A DNA stretch of 64,000 bases from Anaerolineae bacterium. Its GTDB lineage: Bacteria > Chloroflexota > Anaerolineae > Anaerolineales > UBA11579. The notes below the pieces were generated by a model that was not told the origin of the DNA, did no database searches, and saw only the letters and a program-made list of their open reading frames with translations. The stretch is from contig SCUK01000025.1 in assembly GCA_004297445.1 (NCBI GenBank), positions 1,889 through 65,888 on the forward strand. Reading direction: 5' to 3'. This document shows, piece after piece, positions 3,001-18,521 of the stretch. A program made the position numbers and the translations under genes. Within the stretch, counting starts at the first letter, position 1, and each line of letters starts with the position of its first letter.

Positions 3001-3211
3001 CGGAGAAGATGATGTCGTCCGTCTTGCGGGCGCGCATCAGGCTGTAGGACTGTTCGCCCAGCACCCAGCGCAACGCATCCGCCACATTGGATTTGCCTGA
3101 ACCGTTCGGCCCTACCACGGCCGTCACCTGGTCGGCGAATTCAAACTTGGTCTTGCTGGCAAAGGTCTTGTAGCCCACCAGTTCCAGCGATTTAAGTCGC
3201 GCCGCGCTCAT
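1..3211 (-). CDS. smc: Chromosome segregation protein SMC (runs off the window edge, 3' part missing)
   Basis: Not in ORF track; reverse translation from ATG at 3211 gives MSAARLKSLELVGYKTFASKTKFEFADQVTAVVGPNGSGKSNVADALRWVLGEQ (Walker A), followed by coiled coil; ATGA overlap with rnc stop. Confidence 0.95.
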   Translation of the reverse strand, partial: MSAARLKSLELVGYKTFASKTKFEFADQVTAVVGPNGSGKSNVADALRWVLGEQSYSLMRARKTDDIIFSGSEKRPRASMASATVTFDNSEGWLPIDFSEVSITRRAFRDGQNEYMINSQKVRLRDVTELLAKSGLAERTYTVIGQGMVDAALSLKAEDRRALFEEAAGISLYRQRREQSLRRLETTRRNLERVEDILAELAPRVKSLERQAQRAGEYEQVRADLQAILREWYGYHWHLGQQEYLDAVTYAGQQEQSLMAARENQEALDHDLLTLRDRISGLRARLGSWHRELAALHTRRESTSRELAVSDERQRALRERQTQLDSDLAQRQQELALEKERLQEAEVRVARLEADATEAQTQADAARITLAERQTQRTTLETELAETRKKLEQGNTRKIELAALKSELQARLDKQGGAQHDVSAEVGAAAVALEAVTLALSGAQTALTQAETARANAQNRLEQARVTLKQIEEQHRQDVAERARLETEAARLNAQLDVLVQAEESLAGYASGAKALLEATRSGRLAGGRGALSSHLTVPPEYETAIAAALGQYVDAVLVQGDYEPALALLEAEPARAAILPLDTLNPPTPLTAPNVEGCLGVAARLVSAPPELRPAVDLLLGQALVVKDRGAARRALAGQPVTARAVTLRGEVFAASGAILVDSEASAATLSRPRQRQELQELIEKNSVAQRDATNGLRELEGRRKTQEQELADAERGLKAAEQAASGAMGKAQESQLQQEAAQRQLDWQRGRQTALQQELDQAASQIKGLGDEAAALDHDMEQLNSEQRARVAELAGLTLDEPQAQAAHWDTQAAVSRRALEDARASQRERSDVYGRVLAQVTELQAGNAQVQEELTRLRQSATDMRDSEGGLGGEIGQLQELIEPGETELRAAEGQQAELEGRDMGSRQALNAVERAHAQAQIQLARRQEALDGLRRRIEDDFGLVEFTYEKQVSGPTPLPLGDLVERLPVVQVIAPDLEDRLKQQRMQLRRMGAVNPEAQAEYRQVKERFVFMTGQVADLTQAEKDIKEVIAELDELMDREFRKTFDTVAAEFREIFARLFPGGQAR

Positions 3212-14285: not shown

Positions 14286-15197
14286 GTGAAGCGTTTTCGA
14301 ACATGGGTATGGCGAGTGCTGACCGCCCCCTTCCGCTGGCTGGGGCGCGGGCTTCGGTTTCTGGCGCTCCGCTCACCCCTTCGGGAATTCTTCATTCCTG
14401 AAGAAGAAGATACCCCGATTCTGGATACCATCAGCCGCGCCGCCCAACAACCCGGCGACTTCCTTTCCGGCCTGATCGTTCACCTGGACGCGCTTCGCAA
14501 GCACCTGCTTCGGATAGTCCTGGCTCTTGTCTTCACTTCATCAATTGCACTTGTCTTCATGAACCAGATTCTGGGCTGGCTGGCCGCGCCCATCGGCGGA
14601 ATCGGGTCGCTTCAGGCGATTGAAGTCACGGAACCGGTTAGCGTCGTCATGCGCGTGGCCTTACTGATTGGCTTTACCGCCGCCCTCCCCTACATCGTCT
14701 TTGAGGTACTGCGGTTCATGGCCCCCGGCCTGTCAATGCGGGCACGCTGGTTCGGCCTGGCGGCCATCCCCGTCGTCACGCTCTTTTTCCTGGGCGGTAT
14801 GGCCTTTACCTATTACTATATGCTGGACCCCGCTCTGGATGTGTTGCTGAACTTCTTCGGCATTACCACCGTCGCCCGACCTGCCTCTTACATAAAGTTT
14901 GTCACCGGCCTGATGTTCTGGATCGGCATCTGCTTTGAATTCCCGATCGTTTCCTATGTCCTATCTGCAATGGGTATTCTGAAAGCCCGCATGCTACGGG
15001 AAAACTGGCGTGTGGCATTCATCTTGCTCACCGTATTGGCAGCGATGATTACGCCAACGGTCGACCCGTTGAACATGATGATCGTCCTACTTCCTCTATG
15101 GATACTTTACGGCTTAAGCATCTTCATGGCAGCGCTCGGTGGGTTGGGCCACACGCGCCGCCAACAACGGCTGGGCAATCCGGAACTCCAATCCTGA
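14286..15197 (+). CDS. tatC: Twin-arginine translocase TatC
   Basis: HLDALRKHL, F.APGL, FEFP, AMITPT.DP; multiple TM helices. Confidence 0.92.
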   Translation: MKRFRTWVWRVLTAPFRWLGRGLRFLALRSPLREFFIPEEEDTPILDTISRAAQQPGDFLSGLIVHLDALRKHLLRIVLALVFTSSIALVFMNQILGWLAAPIGGIGSLQAIEVTEPVSVVMRVALLIGFTAALPYIVFEVLRFMAPGLSMRARWFGLAAIPVVTLFFLGGMAFTYYYMLDPALDVLLNFFGITTVARPASYIKFVTGLMFWIGICFEFPIVSYVLSAMGILKARMLRENWRVAFILLTVLAAMITPTVDPLNMMIVLLPLWILYGLSIFMAALGGLGHTRRQQRLGNPELQS

Positions 15198-15205
15198 ACC
15201 GGCTC

Positions 15206-17704
15206 ATGTCAAAGGGGAACCAGACTTCCGCTTCACTCAAATCCCTGGCAATACTCTGGGTCACTCTCGCCCTTTTTCTTCAAGCATGTGGGGTGCAGCT
15301 CGCTGCAGCCCCCGGCCCCGAGACATCCGATTCGGGCGATGCCCAACCCGCCCCCGCAGAAGATAACGATTCGGTCCAGGTTACGGATATCTTTATCTGG
15401 GTACAAGTTCCCGCCAATTCCCCGGCCGGTCATGCCATCTACATCGAAGTTGTCGATGAAGTAACCGGTCTGCCGTTCAATGCGGAGCGCACAGAACTCC
15501 GCTCGGTCGATGCCACTCACTATGGGGTCGCAATGCGAGTCCCAGTGGGGACAGTCCTTAAATACCGCTACCTCCGAATCGATGCCGGCGGAGGGGTAAC
15601 GCCCGAAACCACCCTGCCGGGTGAGCCGGTCCGCTATCGCGTGTTTCTGGTAGACGGGCCGGGTGAAGTACATGACCTCGTCGCTCGCTGGGCAGATACA
15701 GCCTCAGATGATTTATCCGGGCGCATCACCGGCATCGCCCTCGACGTCGATACCCTGGAACCAATTCCCAACCTGCTGGTCTTTGCTGCGGGCCAGCAAA
15801 CCCTCACCCTTTCGGATGGCTCCTTTAGATTTCACAACATTCCGCCAGGAGTACACCTTATCTCAGCCATCAGCATGGATGGCTCTTACCAGACTTATAA
15901 ACAGAATGCAAAAGTGGCTGCCGAGGCCACGACTCCTGCAACTCTTCAATTACAGGCGGCTGAATTGGTAAGAGTGTCCTTCGTTGTCGACGTTCCGGAA
16001 AGCATGTTGCCAGCCACGCCGCTGCGGCTTGCAGGCAACCTGGCCCAATTAGGGAATTCCTTCGCCGAGCTTGGCGGCGGCATCAGCGGTTTCGCTGGCA
16101 CCATGCCGGTTCTAGAACAAACGGATGACCACGAGTATTCCATCACCCTGATGCTTCCCGCCCAGGTAGAGATCTTATACAAATACACGCTGGGGGATGG
16201 ATTCTGGAACGCGGAACATGCCGCGGATCTGGATTTTTTGGTAAGGCGTCTCTACATCCCCCGTTCCCAGGGCAATCTGCGCGTGGAAGACCGCATTCTG
16301 ACCTTCCAGGCAGGCAGCGGTGCACCGGCATGGTTTGACGCCAACCTGACAGCCTTTATGCCTCCCGGAGACACGCTTTCAATCCAGTTCAAATTAAGCG
16401 AATGGATGTCCCCAATCCCCATGTGGCCGGTCGCGGAATCCCGATGGGCGTTTCAAATAATAAGCCCCACCCAGATTGGCGGCGACCTGGTCTATCGCTA
16501 CTGCCGCAGCAACCTCTGCGGCGAAGACTATACGATTTCGACCGAATTGGACCCCGCGACGCGAGTTACAGCAATTGGGGGCGAAGAGACCAGTGTGCAG
16601 GTAGACCATATCGCGAACTGGCAGGAAATGAGCGCCCCAGCATTCGCCGTCACGGTGCTGGACAATCCTGTGGTTTCCCGTGGTCAGGACTTCATTGCCG
16701 GCATCATGTTTTCGCCTGGCTACAGCCCGCTATGGGCGGAGCGTACCGACAACGCGCTCACCGAAATAAGCCGGCTCAACGCCAATACACTGGTGCTCCG
16801 CCCGACCTGGGGTGCAAGCAACGACGGTCTCCCCGCGTTTCAGCCTGAAATAGGGCGCGATGCAGATTGGAGCTATCTGGTCCTCCAGATTCGAGCTGCC
16901 CACGACAAAGGGTTGCGGGTAGCTATTGCGCCGCAACTCCGCTTTAACCCTGTGGGCCCAAAGTGGTGGAGCCAGACTCCGAGAGATGGAGAATGGTGGG
17001 GAAATTGGTGGGAGCAATGCCGGGCGTTTGTCTTACATTTCGCCGACCTCGCCGAGCAGGAACAGGCGGAATTCCTTATGCTCGATGGAAGTCAGGTCGC
17101 CGAGGCGCTGCCGGGTGCCTTTCCGGATTCCCCGGCAGACGCAAATGCCCGCTGGCTTGAGCTCATCGAAGATGTTCGAACTCGCTACACCGGGCAACTC
17201 GCCTGGAACCTGCCATTCGATGCAGTAGATCAGGTGCCAGCATTCCTATCCTCTCTGGATATGCTTTCTGTGGAGTGGGGAGCCTCGCTGGGAACCTGGG
17301 AAGGCACGACGCTGGCCGAGATGCAATCCCGATCTCAGGTATTGCTTGAAGACGAGGTACGGCCGCTTAAGGAGCGGTTTGAGCTTCCGGTCGTCCTGCT
17401 CATTTCTTACCCCTCCGCCGAAGGGGGACTCACCGGCTGCGTGGCAGGCAATGACGGATGCGTTCCTCTGCACCTCCTCGAACCCGGCCAACCGCCCCCG
17501 GATTTCGTGACGCTTGACCTCGTCGAGCAGATGGAAGTCTACAACGCGCTACTGGCGGCTGTAAATGAAACACCGTGGCTGGACGGCGTGATAAGTGAGG
17601 GATTTTTCCCGCCCTCCGGCCTTTTGGATAAATCAACTTCCATACATGGCAAACCCGCGGCAGAAGTCCTGCGCTATTGGTTCGGCCGGTTGCTGGGGCA
17701 ATAG
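15206..17704 (+). CDS. Lipoprotein with CBM20-like modules, a carboxypeptidase-regulatory-like domain and a C-terminal GH113-like TIM barrel
   Basis: Lipobox FLQAC; LKYRY, LAGN..QLGN, YKYTLG (CBM20-like); IRAAHDKGLRVAIAPQ, W.ELIEDVR.RYTG.L, GKPAAEVL. Confidence 0.6.
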   Translation: MSKGNQTSASLKSLAILWVTLALFLQACGVQLAAAPGPETSDSGDAQPAPAEDNDSVQVTDIFIWVQVPANSPAGHAIYIEVVDEVTGLPFNAERTELRSVDATHYGVAMRVPVGTVLKYRYLRIDAGGGVTPETTLPGEPVRYRVFLVDGPGEVHDLVARWADTASDDLSGRITGIALDVDTLEPIPNLLVFAAGQQTLTLSDGSFRFHNIPPGVHLISAISMDGSYQTYKQNAKVAAEATTPATLQLQAAELVRVSFVVDVPESMLPATPLRLAGNLAQLGNSFAELGGGISGFAGTMPVLEQTDDHEYSITLMLPAQVEILYKYTLGDGFWNAEHAADLDFLVRRLYIPRSQGNLRVEDRILTFQAGSGAPAWFDANLTAFMPPGDTLSIQFKLSEWMSPIPMWPVAESRWAFQIISPTQIGGDLVYRYCRSNLCGEDYTISTELDPATRVTAIGGEETSVQVDHIANWQEMSAPAFAVTVLDNPVVSRGQDFIAGIMFSPGYSPLWAERTDNALTEISRLNANTLVLRPTWGASNDGLPAFQPEIGRDADWSYLVLQIRAAHDKGLRVAIAPQLRFNPVGPKWWSQTPRDGEWWGNWWEQCRAFVLHFADLAEQEQAEFLMLDGSQVAEALPGAFPDSPADANARWLELIEDVRTRYTGQLAWNLPFDAVDQVPAFLSSLDMLSVEWGASLGTWEGTTLAEMQSRSQVLLEDEVRPLKERFELPVVLLISYPSAEGGLTGCVAGNDGCVPLHLLEPGQPPPDFVTLDLVEQMEVYNALLAAVNETPWLDGVISEGFFPPSGLLDKSTSIHGKPAAEVLRYWFGRLLGQ

Positions 17705-17753
17705 ACACAGTTTTATCGTCAGGAATTCATGCTGTTGGGGGCAAACCAACCGG

Positions 17754-18010
17754 TATGCTATAATTGACTTAATGTGACAACTCCGTCGCCTAAAGGCAGA
17801 CGGCTTCTTGGGCAACGCATGATGCAACCATCTACGTTATCGCCCAACGGCTGTGTCCCAGCCGAAAAGTGTTTTGGCTATCAGCCTGACCTGTCGCCGC
17901 CTGTCCCTTATAGACTTGTACGGCATAGCCAGCACTTTATCACTCAACAGATTTTACGTCACAAGAGATTCGCTGTGACAACCTTATACCTATTCGTTTG
18001 TAAAAGTGCT
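17754..18010 (-). ncRNA. Putative TnpB omega/reRNA-like RNA (scaffold plus ~20-nt flanking guide)
   Basis: TG-A-TATAGT at 18025-18017 on minus strand; 5' long hairpin; tnpB 3'-end-like remnant NTFRLGHSRWAIT* (17873-17832); right-end hairpin and TCAC. Confidence 0.45.
17756..17764 (+). promoter_or_regulatory. Extended -10 promoter, probably the native promoter of the DUF948-YtxH pair
   Basis: TGCTATAAT, 9 nt before the element boundary at 17774. Confidence 0.65.
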
Positions 18011-18080
18011 AGTCTAACTATATCACCAACGGAGGCAAGCGGCTTCCCCTGTCGCCTGAAGACGACAGTCCCCGCCGCTA
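17774..18080 (-). mobile_element. Non-autonomous IS200/IS605-family derivative (MITE/PATE-like), no tnpA or intact tnpB
   Basis: Minus strand starts GCGGCGGGGACTGTCGTCTTCAGGCGACAGGGGAAGCCGC (left-end hairpin) and ends CCCAAGAAGCCGTCTGCCTTTAGGCGACGGAGTTGTCAC (right-end hairpin + TCAC); left boundary uncertain by a few nt. Confidence 0.72.
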
Positions 18081-18086
18081 ATTTTT

Positions 18087-18521
18087 ATGGAAAAAAGTAG
18101 TGCGCCCATGCTTTCGTCAGAAGAATTGCGCAAACAGCGCTTGTTGACGCTTGGCCTTTCAGTCAGCGCAATCTTGTTCGTTGGGCTGCTGGTTGCCGCA
18201 GTCTGGGGCATGCTGGCAAATCCGGAGTTCACCGCAACTCTCAAAGATATCACCGTGATCGCGGTCGCGGTGATGCTGGTCCTGATTGCTTTCACCCTCG
18301 TTATCCTGGTGATTCAGTTGGCCCGGTTGGCCAACATGGTTCAAAATGAGGTACGCCCGCTGCTGGACTCTGCCAACGACGCGGTGAACACCGTGCGCGG
18401 GACAGCGGAGTTTCTTAGCGAGAACCTGAGTGAGCCGGTAATAAAATTGAATAGCTATCTGTCCGGTGTCCGCAAATTGCTTGACACCTTTGATGTATTG
18501 AAGAAGCCGTTTCAGAAATAG
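18087..18521 (+). CDS. DUF948-like membrane protein
   Basis: Two TM helices then amphipathic/coiled segment; paired with YtxH. Confidence 0.65.
   Translation: MEKSSAPMLSSEELRKQRLLTLGLSVSAILFVGLLVAAVWGMLANPEFTATLKDITVIAVAVMLVLIAFTLVILVIQLARLANMVQNEVRPLLDSANDAVNTVRGTAEFLSENLSEPVIKLNSYLSGVRKLLDTFDVLKKPFQK

What the first reader, a model, noticed from the sequence alone, without database searches (positions are those of the whole stretch)
17754..18080. Orphan IS605-type element that looks like a stand-alone TnpB omega-RNA cassette
Seen on the minus strand: a left-end-type hairpin (18078-18039), an extended -10 TG-A-TATAGT (18025-18017), an 80-nt imperfect hairpin beginning at the predicted start site (AGCACTTT...AAAGTGCT enclosing GTCACA...TGTGAC, 18010-17931), a short reading NTFRLGHSRWAIT* resembling a TnpB C-terminal tail, then GAAGCCGTCTGCCTTTAGGCGACGGAGTTG-TCAC. 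Established: IS200/IS605 TnpB reRNAs overlap the tnpB 3' end and right end, and the guide is the DNA flanking the right end. Inference: tnpA and tnpB are gone, but promoter and scaffold remain, so this may be a mobilisable trans-acting guide-RNA module with guide AUUAAGUCAAUUAUAGCAUA.
Basis: partly seen in the sequence, partly recalled or inferred. Interest (0 to 1): 0.85.

Follow-up and report, generated by a model that had tools for sequence, protein, structure and literature searches.

The report
Gene-less IS605 remnant keeping guide RNA
A 313-base, gene-less derivative of an IS200/IS605 transposon sits between a gene's promoter and its start codon and still carries an intact copy of the guide-RNA scaffold used by TnpB nucleases encoded elsewhere in the genome, a kind of element that has already been described in other bacteria.

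Summary
Window 17774-18086 (minus strand, 313 bp) is a non-autonomous IS200/IS605 derivative (a PATE). Its left end matches left ends that precede tnpA or tnpA-tnpB in this genome (C31) and in a relative (G026). Its last 95 nt are the tnpB 3' tail plus the right end, ending in TCAC.

Exact empty sites in two metagenome runs fix the borders. The target motif is CCAT, which here is the ATGG start of the downstream 144-aa gene.

A covariance model built without the window from 14 tnpB-linked right ends scores 17774-17868 at 92 bits (E about 1e-12). All four stems and a pseudoknot are intact, in the same nested order as the 116-nt ISDra2 omega-RNA core.

Two intact 379-aa TnpB genes (C5, C31) and one tnpA (C31) are present in trans. 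That module is not detectably tnpB-derived.

Transcription, TnpB binding and mobility are untested, because no RNA data were available. PATEs carrying omega RNAs and stand-alone omega RNAs acting in trans are already in print, so this is a new member of a known kind.

The parts
17774..18086 (-). Whole non-autonomous IS200/IS605 element (PATE), 313 bp, left end at 18086 and right end at 17774
   Evidence: Two X5 contigs read ...CTATAATTGACTTAAT|ATGGAAAAAAG. An X3 23.8-kb contig skips 17768-18085 with 5 substitute letters. Flanks diverge immediately after TCAC in all 17 aligned right ends.
18087..18090 (-). Target / transposon-adjacent motif CCAT abutting the left end; on the + strand it is ATGG, the start of the 144-aa ORF
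   Evidence: CCAT precedes the left end in all 8 copies aligned and in all 16 of the 57 metagenome loci that were printed.
18017..18086 (-). Left end: AAAAAT start, subterminal hairpin (18078-18039) and the -10-like TGATATAGT (18025-18017)
   Evidence: 84-88% identical to four G026 left ends, three followed by a tnpA match and one of these also by the start of tnpB. Aligns with the C31 left end, whose GATAGAAT lies just upstream of the tnpA ATG. The promoter role is inferred only.
17941..18009 (-). Conserved 5' module: 12-nt box (18009-17998) plus a two-tier hairpin (17994-17946) flanked by GGTT and GTAAAAT
   Evidence: Significantly similar to the middles of PATE-sized elements L090 (z 4.7, 0/300) and L101 (z 3.6, 2/300). 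The same fold appears in 5 of 5 sequences folded singly. Not similar to tnpB tails.
17869..17940 (-). Linker with an extra stem (GGCTAT...ATAGCC); its 3' end (from about 17879) begins the degenerate tnpB C-terminal reading
   Evidence: Fold. The blastx match covers 17879-17790. L090, L101 and L095 have only about 21 nt here.
17774..17868 (-). Omega-RNA core scaffold: stem A with the pseudoknot loop, outer stem C enclosing stem B, and the right-end hairpin (17803-17783), then the tail AGTTGTCAC
   Evidence: Model R1, built without the window: 92.2 bits, E 1e-12 in the genome and 2.4e-14 in the window, model positions 1-94. Covariation is shown.
17758..17773 (-). Predicted 16-nt guide (flank 3' of the right end); overlaps the -10 box (TGcTATAAT, + strand 17756-17764) of the 144-aa gene
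   Evidence: Position follows the established omega-RNA rule (PMC10097598 passages). The 16-mer is unique in the genome at 0-1 mismatch, and no CCAT+seed site exists elsewhere.

Best explanation
Window 17774-18086 (minus strand) is a palindrome-associated transposable element. It is a gene-less member of an IS200/IS605 lineage whose full elements carry a Y1 transposase TnpA and a 379-aa TnpB.

It consists of five parts:
- a left end with the TnpA-type hairpin and a -10-like box at the place where the full C31 element has a -10-like box just upstream of its tnpA start codon;
- a conserved non-coding 5' module;
- a linker;
- a complete 95-nt omega-RNA core, which is the decayed last 30 codons of tnpB plus the right-end hairpin;
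- the right-end terminus TCAC.

It was inserted 3' of a CCAT motif that is the ATGG start of a 144-aa membrane-protein gene. That gene is now separated from its promoter.

The most likely mechanism has three steps, all inferred and none shown:
1. An RNA starting in the left end or 5' module runs through the scaffold into the flank.
2. One of the two intact TnpB proteins encoded elsewhere (C5, C31) binds and trims it, leaving a roughly 16-nt guide, AUUAAGUCAAUUAUAG.
3. That complex cuts only the empty allele (CCAT followed by the guide match), so the element is restored by recombination after TnpA-mediated excision.

My odds: PATE identity about 0.9; still a working trans-acting omega RNA about 0.4.
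For: Ends
- The right-end region aligns with those of C5, C31 and 14 related loci. All end GTCAC, with unrelated flanks after it.
- The left end aligns with C31 and six G026 copies. Three of those are followed by a tnpA match (L015 also by the start of tnpB).

Insertion
- Exact empty sites occur in X5 and X3.
- The spacer between the same two genes is about 70-80 bp in G002 and G003.

Scaffold
- RNAalifold on 15 sequences gives 25 pairs, 16 with compensatory changes.
- With the pseudoknot added, 95.7% of cells are paired against 31-43% when slid. 17 of 28 pairs change on both sides, and 0 of 500 shuffles reach this.
- C5 shows GAU/AUC where the window has GAC/GUC in the pseudoknot.
- R1, built without the window, finds 3 hits in the genome: C31 96.4, window 92.2 and C5 78.1 bits.
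- The topology matches the ISDra2 omega RNA. That RNA has a 116-nt functional scaffold in which stem 2 encloses stem 3, a terminal hairpin, and positions -5 to -3 paired to the stem-1 loop (PMC10097598 passages).

Partners in trans
- C5 and C31 TnpB carry the HTH_OrfB_IS605, OrfB_IS605 and Cas12f1-like_TNB domains.
- C5 TnpB matches the ISDra2 TnpB structures at E 1e-43 over residues 4-355.
- GVDLG/GVDMG, EDL and DRDVNA are present in both proteins.
- C31 has a 130-aa Y1_Tnp.

Family
- 57 metagenome loci carry the left-end hairpin, and 19 of them have an R1 hit.
- In 9 of those 19 the left-end hairpin and the R1 hit lie 296-362 bp apart, which is PATE-sized. The other 10 lie 1.3-1.7 kb apart (my subtraction).
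- The middles of win, L090, L101, L095 and L096 are linked by significant similarity.

Literature.
Against: - No RNA evidence exists. No RNA run was available, so transcription, 5' end and processing are unknown.
- The TGATATAGT box lacks a -35 element and was not called by the promoter scan.
- The element is single-copy in this 89%-complete genome.
- The nearest omega-RNA module linked to a tnpB in the genome is only 82% (C5) or 66% (C31) identical, so recognition by those TnpBs is not assured.
- The only same-family tnpA (C31) has left- and right-end hairpins of different sequence, so mobilisation in this cell is uncertain.
- Structure conservation in the core could have been inherited from a time when it was still part of a full element.
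- The empty sites in X3 and X5 do not distinguish never inserted from precisely excised.
Confidence: 0.75

Rival explanations
1. Inert wreck. An internally deleted IS605 copy that is no longer transcribed, bound or moved. Its intact-looking scaffold is inherited and has simply not yet decayed.
For: - Single copy in the genome.
- An in-frame stop in the tnpB remnant.
- No tnpA with a matching hairpin in the assembly.
- The promoter is not called by the scan.
Against: - All 26 modelled pairs are formed, and the score is higher than for the tnpB-linked C5 copy.
- The non-coding 5' module is shared with other PATE-sized elements and keeps its two stems through different sequences, 5 of 5. This argues for selection on gene-less elements of this family.
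- PATE-sized left-end-to-omega units recur: 9 of the 19 loci with both a left end and a module.
Confidence: 0.3
2. Host-recruited regulatory insert. The element now serves as the 5' leader or antisense regulator of the 144-aa gene, since it separates the gene's -10 box from its ATG and the predicted guide lies over that -10 box.
For: - Position between TGcTATAAT (17756-17764) and the ATG at 18087.
- Left ends of related copies also abut the ATG of real genes in G026: a multihaem cytochrome and a Trm112-like protein.
Against: - The CCAT target alone explains landing on ATGG.
- Close relatives have the gene without the insert.
- No outward promoter was found.
- Nothing here tests expression.
Confidence: 0.05
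3. The 5' module is the real functional unit. It would be an internal promoter (TTGnnn-N16-19-TAAAAT) or a boxA-like Nus-factor site that drives or protects transcription of the omega RNA in gene-less elements.
For: - GGTT and GTAAAAT flank the inner hairpin in the window, L090 and L101, with close variants in L096 (GTAAAAA) and L095 (GGCT, GTAAGAC).
- The scan calls GTCACA-17-TAAAAT at 17979-17951.
- L101 and L095 carry a perfect match to the boxA consensus GYTCTTTAANA printed in PMC5725501.
- In 546 kb of the 57 loci (both strands), that consensus occurs only at these sites.
Against: - The window's own box matches only 9 of 11. The genome has 2151 sites matching the consensus with exactly 2 mismatches, the window's level.
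- The match was noticed after the fact.
- Covarying stems are not expected of a promoter spacer.
- The organism's own rRNA leader box is only 8 of 11.
Confidence: 0.15

Closest known systems
PATEs (palindrome-associated transposable elements) of IS200/IS605, as noted for Geobacillus stearothermophilus in Meers et al. 2023 (bioRxiv 10.1101/2023.03.14.532601; passages seen)
   Same: Left and right ends with subterminal hairpins, no protein-coding gene, and an omega-RNA region that would need a TnpB encoded in another element.
   Different: A different IS lineage (Chloroflexota/Anaerolineae-type, TAM CCAT, right end TCAC). It carries a conserved 5' module that is not detectably derived from tnpB. 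Nothing here is experimentally tested.
Stand-alone omega RNAs of OMEGA systems (introduction of Altae-Tran et al. 2023, PMC10691335, citing their reference 1; passage seen)
   Same: Mobilised guide-RNA units that lack an effector or transposase but sit in genomes that also hold effector-containing loci.
   Different: I saw only the summary sentence, not the primary data.
ISDra2 TnpB omega RNA (Nakagawa et al. 2023, PMC10097598; passages seen)
   Same: The scaffold overlaps the tnpB 3' end and the right end. The order of helices is the same: stem with pseudoknot loop, outer stem enclosing an inner stem, terminal hairpin, 3' pseudoknot strand, then the guide. The functional core is about 100-116 nt.
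   Different: No detectable sequence similarity (Rfam scan empty). 95 nt instead of 116. TAM CCAT instead of TTGAT.

Membership tests
IS200/IS605 non-autonomous element (PATE) | Left and right ends with subterminal hairpins related to those of an element encoding a Y1 (HUH) TnpA | tested here: met
   Alignments with the C31 tnpA-tnpB element and the G026 copies. C31 TnpA matches Y1_Tnp at E 3e-34.
IS200/IS605 non-autonomous element (PATE) | Insertion 3' of a short conserved target motif, with no target duplication and no terminal inverted repeats | tested here: met
   Empty site ...TTAAT|ATGG... with no duplicated bases. CCAT lies 5' of every left end examined.
IS200/IS605 non-autonomous element (PATE) | No protein-coding gene inside | tested here: met
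   Only a 30-residue tnpB tail with an internal stop is detectable. Length is 313 bp.
IS200/IS605 non-autonomous element (PATE) | Mobility in trans (several copies, or presence/absence polymorphism) | tested here: inconclusive
   Single copy in the genome. Presence/absence polymorphism against X3 and X5. Related PATE-sized elements sit in other metagenomes with other flanks.
TnpB omega RNA | Encoded at the tnpB 3' end plus the right end, with the guide in the flank | tested here: met
   17774-17868 is homologous to the 3' ends of the C5 and C31 tnpB genes plus their right ends.
TnpB omega RNA | Conserved secondary structure with covariation, including a pseudoknot next to the guide | tested here: met
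   The pseudoknot itself rests on 3 pairs and one compensatory case, so that part is weaker.
TnpB omega RNA | Transcribed, and bound or processed by TnpB | not testable with these tools
   No RNA run was listed for this DNA.
TnpB omega RNA | Guides TAM-dependent DNA cleavage | not testable with these tools
   Needs a biochemical or plasmid-interference assay.
Rfam families | Match to any curated RNA family | tested here: not met
   0 matches at E up to 10 over 17300-18500.

The most novel reading that the evidence does not exclude
Gene-less elements of this lineage form a self-propagating family of guide-RNA genes. They have acquired their own expression module, not derived from tnpB, between the left-end promoter and the omega-RNA core. 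That module is a boxA-like Nus-factor site followed by a covarying two-tier hairpin. It would protect or shape an untranslated omega-RNA precursor once the tnpB reading frame, and with it translation, is gone.
Probability: 0.12. Interest if true: 0.7.

Novelty: new member of a known kind. Interest (0 to 1): 0.4.

Why it matters
This is a clean natural example of an omega-RNA gene uncoupled from its nuclease. It has base-exact borders, a defined TAM (CCAT), a defined guide, the matching empty allele seen in related populations, and two candidate TnpB partners in the same genome. That makes trans-use of guide RNAs by TnpB directly testable in a Chloroflexota lineage.

The shared, covarying 5' module of the gene-less elements is the one part I did not find described in the passages read. 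I ran no literature search for such a module. It may show what a guide-RNA gene needs once it no longer rides inside an mRNA. The rest is ordinary transposon decay.

Tried and rejected
Searches that found nothing
- Rfam scan of 17300-18500 at E up to 10: nothing.
- DNA search with the middle (17869-18040) in 400 genomes of the phylum: only chance matches of 19-24 nt.
- Exact 22-mer from the inner hairpin in metagenome contigs: 0.
- Pattern joining the GTAAAAT box to stem A in 400 phylum genomes: 0.

Origin of the middle
- I first read the middle as a colinear remnant of the last 240 nt or so of tnpB, because a MAFFT alignment suggested it. I rejected that reading.
- blastn found nothing at E up to 0.1.
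- Local alignment scores against the tnpB tails of L088, C5 and C31 were no better than shuffles: z 0.2-1.4, with 59-201 of 500 shuffles as high.

Other points
- From the congeners G002 and G003 I first placed the insertion point two bases off. The X5 contigs corrected it.
- A general preference of the family for start codons is not supported for the AGAATT-type left ends. Flank ORFs there were 2-37 aa at the six left-end-type sites of the ten the pattern matched.
- RNA evidence: no RNA holder was listed, so expression was not examined.
- A MAFFT alignment of the 5' modules (A3, A4) put gaps in the stems. I therefore did not use it for pair counting or for a second model. I relied on single-sequence folds instead.
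Supplementary files of papers were not opened, so the PATE figures and tables of Meers et al. and the primary data behind the stand-alone omega-RNA statement were not seen.
- The structure prediction, fold search, complex prediction, protein-atlas and large protein-search tools were not used.

Full report
**What is there.** The finding lies in a 382-bp gap between two + strand ORFs. One encodes an 868-aa protein with a GH113-like domain (15098-17704). The other encodes a 144-aa protein with no Pfam family (18087-18521). The 80-nt hairpin at 18010-17931 folds at -22 kcal/mol, and 0 of 200 shuffles are as stable. The 257-nt stretch 18010-17754 folds at -89 kcal/mol with z -3.8.

**It is the remnant of an IS200/IS605 element.** In the organism's own assembly (3.25 Mb, 84 contigs, 89% complete) the region is single-copy. 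However, 17780-17868 matches two other places, at 83% and 76% identity. Both are the 3' ends of 379-aa tnpB genes. The one on contig C31 is preceded by a 130-aa tnpA. The one on C5 is preceded only by a tnpA tail fused to a fragment of another tnpB. Pfam confirms Y1_Tnp for the TnpA, and HTH_OrfB_IS605, OrfB_IS605 and Cas12f1-like_TNB for both TnpBs. C5 TnpB matches the solved ISDra2 TnpB at E 1e-43.

That match has a TAG where the gene has a tryptophan codon. The right-end region of the window aligns with those of C5, C31 and 14 related loci from Anaerolineae/Chloroflexota assemblies. All end in GTCAC, and their flanks become unrelated at the next base.

The left end aligns with the C31 left end. 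It is 84-88% identical to four copies in G026, a genome of the same family but another genus, and two further short G026 copies match the hairpin. Three of the G026 copies are followed by a tnpA match, one of them also by the start of tnpB.

**Exact borders and target.** Contigs of two metagenome runs carry the empty site.
- In X5, one 151-nt contig ends at 17773 and continues with ATGGAAAAAAG.
- A second X5 contig starts with CTATAATTGACTTAA and continues from 18086.
- In X3, a 23.8-kb contig that is about 92% identical skips 17768-18085, with five substitute letters.

The element is therefore 17774-18086, 313 bp, with no duplicated target bases. On the minus strand it follows CCAT. The same four bases precede all 8 left ends aligned and all 16 metagenome copies printed.

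CCAT on the minus strand is ATGG on the + strand, which is the start of the 144-aa ORF. The element therefore sits between that gene's TGcTATAAT box (17756-17764) and its ATG. Two same-genus genomes (G002, G003) keep the two genes adjacent, with only about 70-80 bp between them. The empty sites cannot distinguish never inserted from precisely excised.

**The omega-RNA core is intact.** An alignment of the last roughly 95 nt of 15 elements gives a consensus fold of 25 pairs, 16 of which have compensatory changes. I then added a three-pair pseudoknot between the loop of the first stem and the three bases before the terminal AC.
- 95.7% of cells are paired, against 31-43% when partners are slid.
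- 17 of 28 pairs change on both sides.
- None of 500 shuffles reaches the observed values on four of five measures.

The pseudoknot itself rests on little: three pairs and one compensatory case (C5).

A covariance model built from the 14 sequences other than the window finds three hits in the genome: C31 at 96.4 bits, the window at 92.2 bits (17774-17868, whole model) and C5 at 78.1 bits. It gives a single hit in the 64-kb window.

The order of helices is the one described for the ISDra2 omega RNA:
- a stem whose loop pairs with positions -5 to -3;
- an outer stem enclosing an inner one;
- the transposon-end hairpin.

For ISDra2, 116 nt of scaffold suffice for cleavage and the 5' 115 nt are dispensable (PMC10097598, passages read). 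The window thus keeps everything that, by that analogy, TnpB needs.

The predicted 16-nt guide is unique in the genome. No other CCAT+seed site exists. This fits a homing guide aimed only at the empty allele.

**The middle is a family trait, not junk and not tnpB.** The 148 nt between the left end and the core have 45% G+C, against 59% for the window. They have no match in 400 genomes of the phylum.

A scan of metagenome contigs with the left-end hairpin gave 57 loci, and the core model hit 19 of them. In 9 of the 19 the distance from the left-end hairpin to the right end is 296-362 bp, that is PATE-sized. In the other 10 it is 1.3-1.7 kb. This is my subtraction of the coordinates. Three of the nine (L095, L099, L110) are the same sequence with the same flanks.

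The window's middle is significantly similar to those of L090 (z 4.7, 0 of 300 shuffles) and L101 (z 3.6, 2 of 300). These in turn link to L095 and L096. The window is not similar to the L093 group (z -1.0).

Folded singly, all five sequences give the same two-tier hairpin with different stem sequences: a seven-pair outer stem and an eight-pair inner stem. The loops are flanked by GGTT and GTAAAAT. The single-sequence z-scores are weak (-0.6 to -2.0), so the argument rests on the shared architecture.

I tested whether the module derives from the tnpB coding region, as one alignment suggested. It does not, detectably.

**What the 5' module does is open.** Its 5' box is, in L101 and L095, a perfect match to the boxA consensus printed in PMC5725501. 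In the 57 loci that consensus occurs nowhere else. However, the window's own box matches only 9 of 11 positions. Matches at that level (exactly two mismatches) occur at 2151 sites in the genome, and I noticed the resemblance after the fact. GGTTG...TAAAAT could also be read as a promoter.

**Relatives and other gene-less forms.** In 100 relatives the core model found 11 hits outside this genome.
- Four had a long tnpB match next to them.
- Two (L057, L058) had only a tnpB tail cut off by the contig end.
- Two (L055, L056) lay at the very start of their contigs, with no upstream sequence to judge.
- Three (L052, L053, L059) had no TnpB match in the 3-kb locus.

L059 is a roughly 150-nt element in which the first 12 nt of the left end are joined directly to a tnpB tail, the core and the right end. 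G026 also has about 50-nt elements made of the left-end start, one hairpin and the right-end tail.

**Comparison with what is known.** Meers et al. 2023 (Discussion passage read) state that PATE elements often encode omega RNAs that would need TnpB proteins from other IS elements. Altae-Tran et al. 2023 (introduction passage read) state that stand-alone, evidently mobilised omega RNAs occur beside effector loci and were shown to work in trans. It belongs to a different IS lineage and has an unusually well-defined anatomy.

**What is shown and what is inferred.**
- Shown: identity of the ends, the borders, the target motif, presence/absence polymorphism, an intact covarying scaffold, candidate TnpB and TnpA genes in trans, and membership of a family of gene-less elements with a shared 5' module.
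- Inferred: transcription from the left end or the 5' module, processing and use by TnpB, cleavage of the empty allele, and mobilisation by TnpA.

Noticed in passing
window 17756-17764 and 18087-18521 (+): The insertion separates the 144-aa gene's extended -10 box from its ATG by 313 bp. In the empty allele the ATG lies 9 nt after the box, so the mRNA was probably leaderless or nearly so. How the gene is expressed now is unknown.
   Followed up: partly
L015:630-2063 (+), L016:223-438 (+), L014:1059-1505 (-): In G026, left ends of the same type abut the ATG of real genes in antisense orientation: a multihaem cytochrome c (Cytochrome_cB, E 5e-56) and a Trm112-like protein. Including the window, 4 of 8 AAAAAT-type left-end sites abut an ORF of 72 aa or more, as the CCAT = ATGG target would allow. 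AGAATT-type copies show no such pattern.
   Followed up: partly
L017 about 1492-1542 and L018 about 1489-1525: Elements of about 50 nt in G026 consisting only of the left-end start, one hairpin and the right-end tail ...GTCGTCAC. These are the smallest derivatives of this IS lineage seen here.
   Followed up: no
L059 about 1445-1594: A roughly 150-nt element in G026 in which CCAT|AAAAATCTCCAA is joined directly to a tnpB tail (RDVNAARNV-like), the omega core and the right end. It has no left-end hairpin, so it is probably immobile, yet the core still scores 58 bits.
   Followed up: partly
L002 2651-3064 (-) = contig C5: Upstream of the C5 tnpB lies a 137-aa chimeric ORF. Its start looks like the N-terminus of another TnpB and its end is a tnpA C-terminus. 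The C5 element has therefore lost its transposase by rearrangement.
   Followed up: no
L101 4261-4272 (-), L095 5979-5990 (+): Perfect match to the gamma-proteobacterial boxA consensus (PMC5725501) at the start of the conserved 5' module of gene-less elements. In L090, L101 and L095 it is preceded by what looks by eye like a hairpin-forming stretch. That order, as I recall it, is the one in rRNA leaders.
   Followed up: partly
window 17983-17975 (-): The 9-mer GTTGTCACA inside the 5' hairpin is identical to the right-end terminus plus the first flank base (17781-17773). This may be chance, or a second potential TnpA cleavage site.
   Followed up: no
L117 about 3110-3135 (-) = contig C63: The organism's single assembled 16S gene has two promoter-like sites upstream and a boxA-like stretch (GAACCTTAACAA) in the leader, matching 8 of 11 positions of the published consensus.
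   Followed up: no
L027-L038 right-end hairpins: In the Phototrophicaceae genome the right-end hairpin carries one to three nested extra hairpins (CGAACC...GGTTCG units) inserted in its loop. The omega-RNA terminal stem therefore tolerates large insertions.
   Followed up: no
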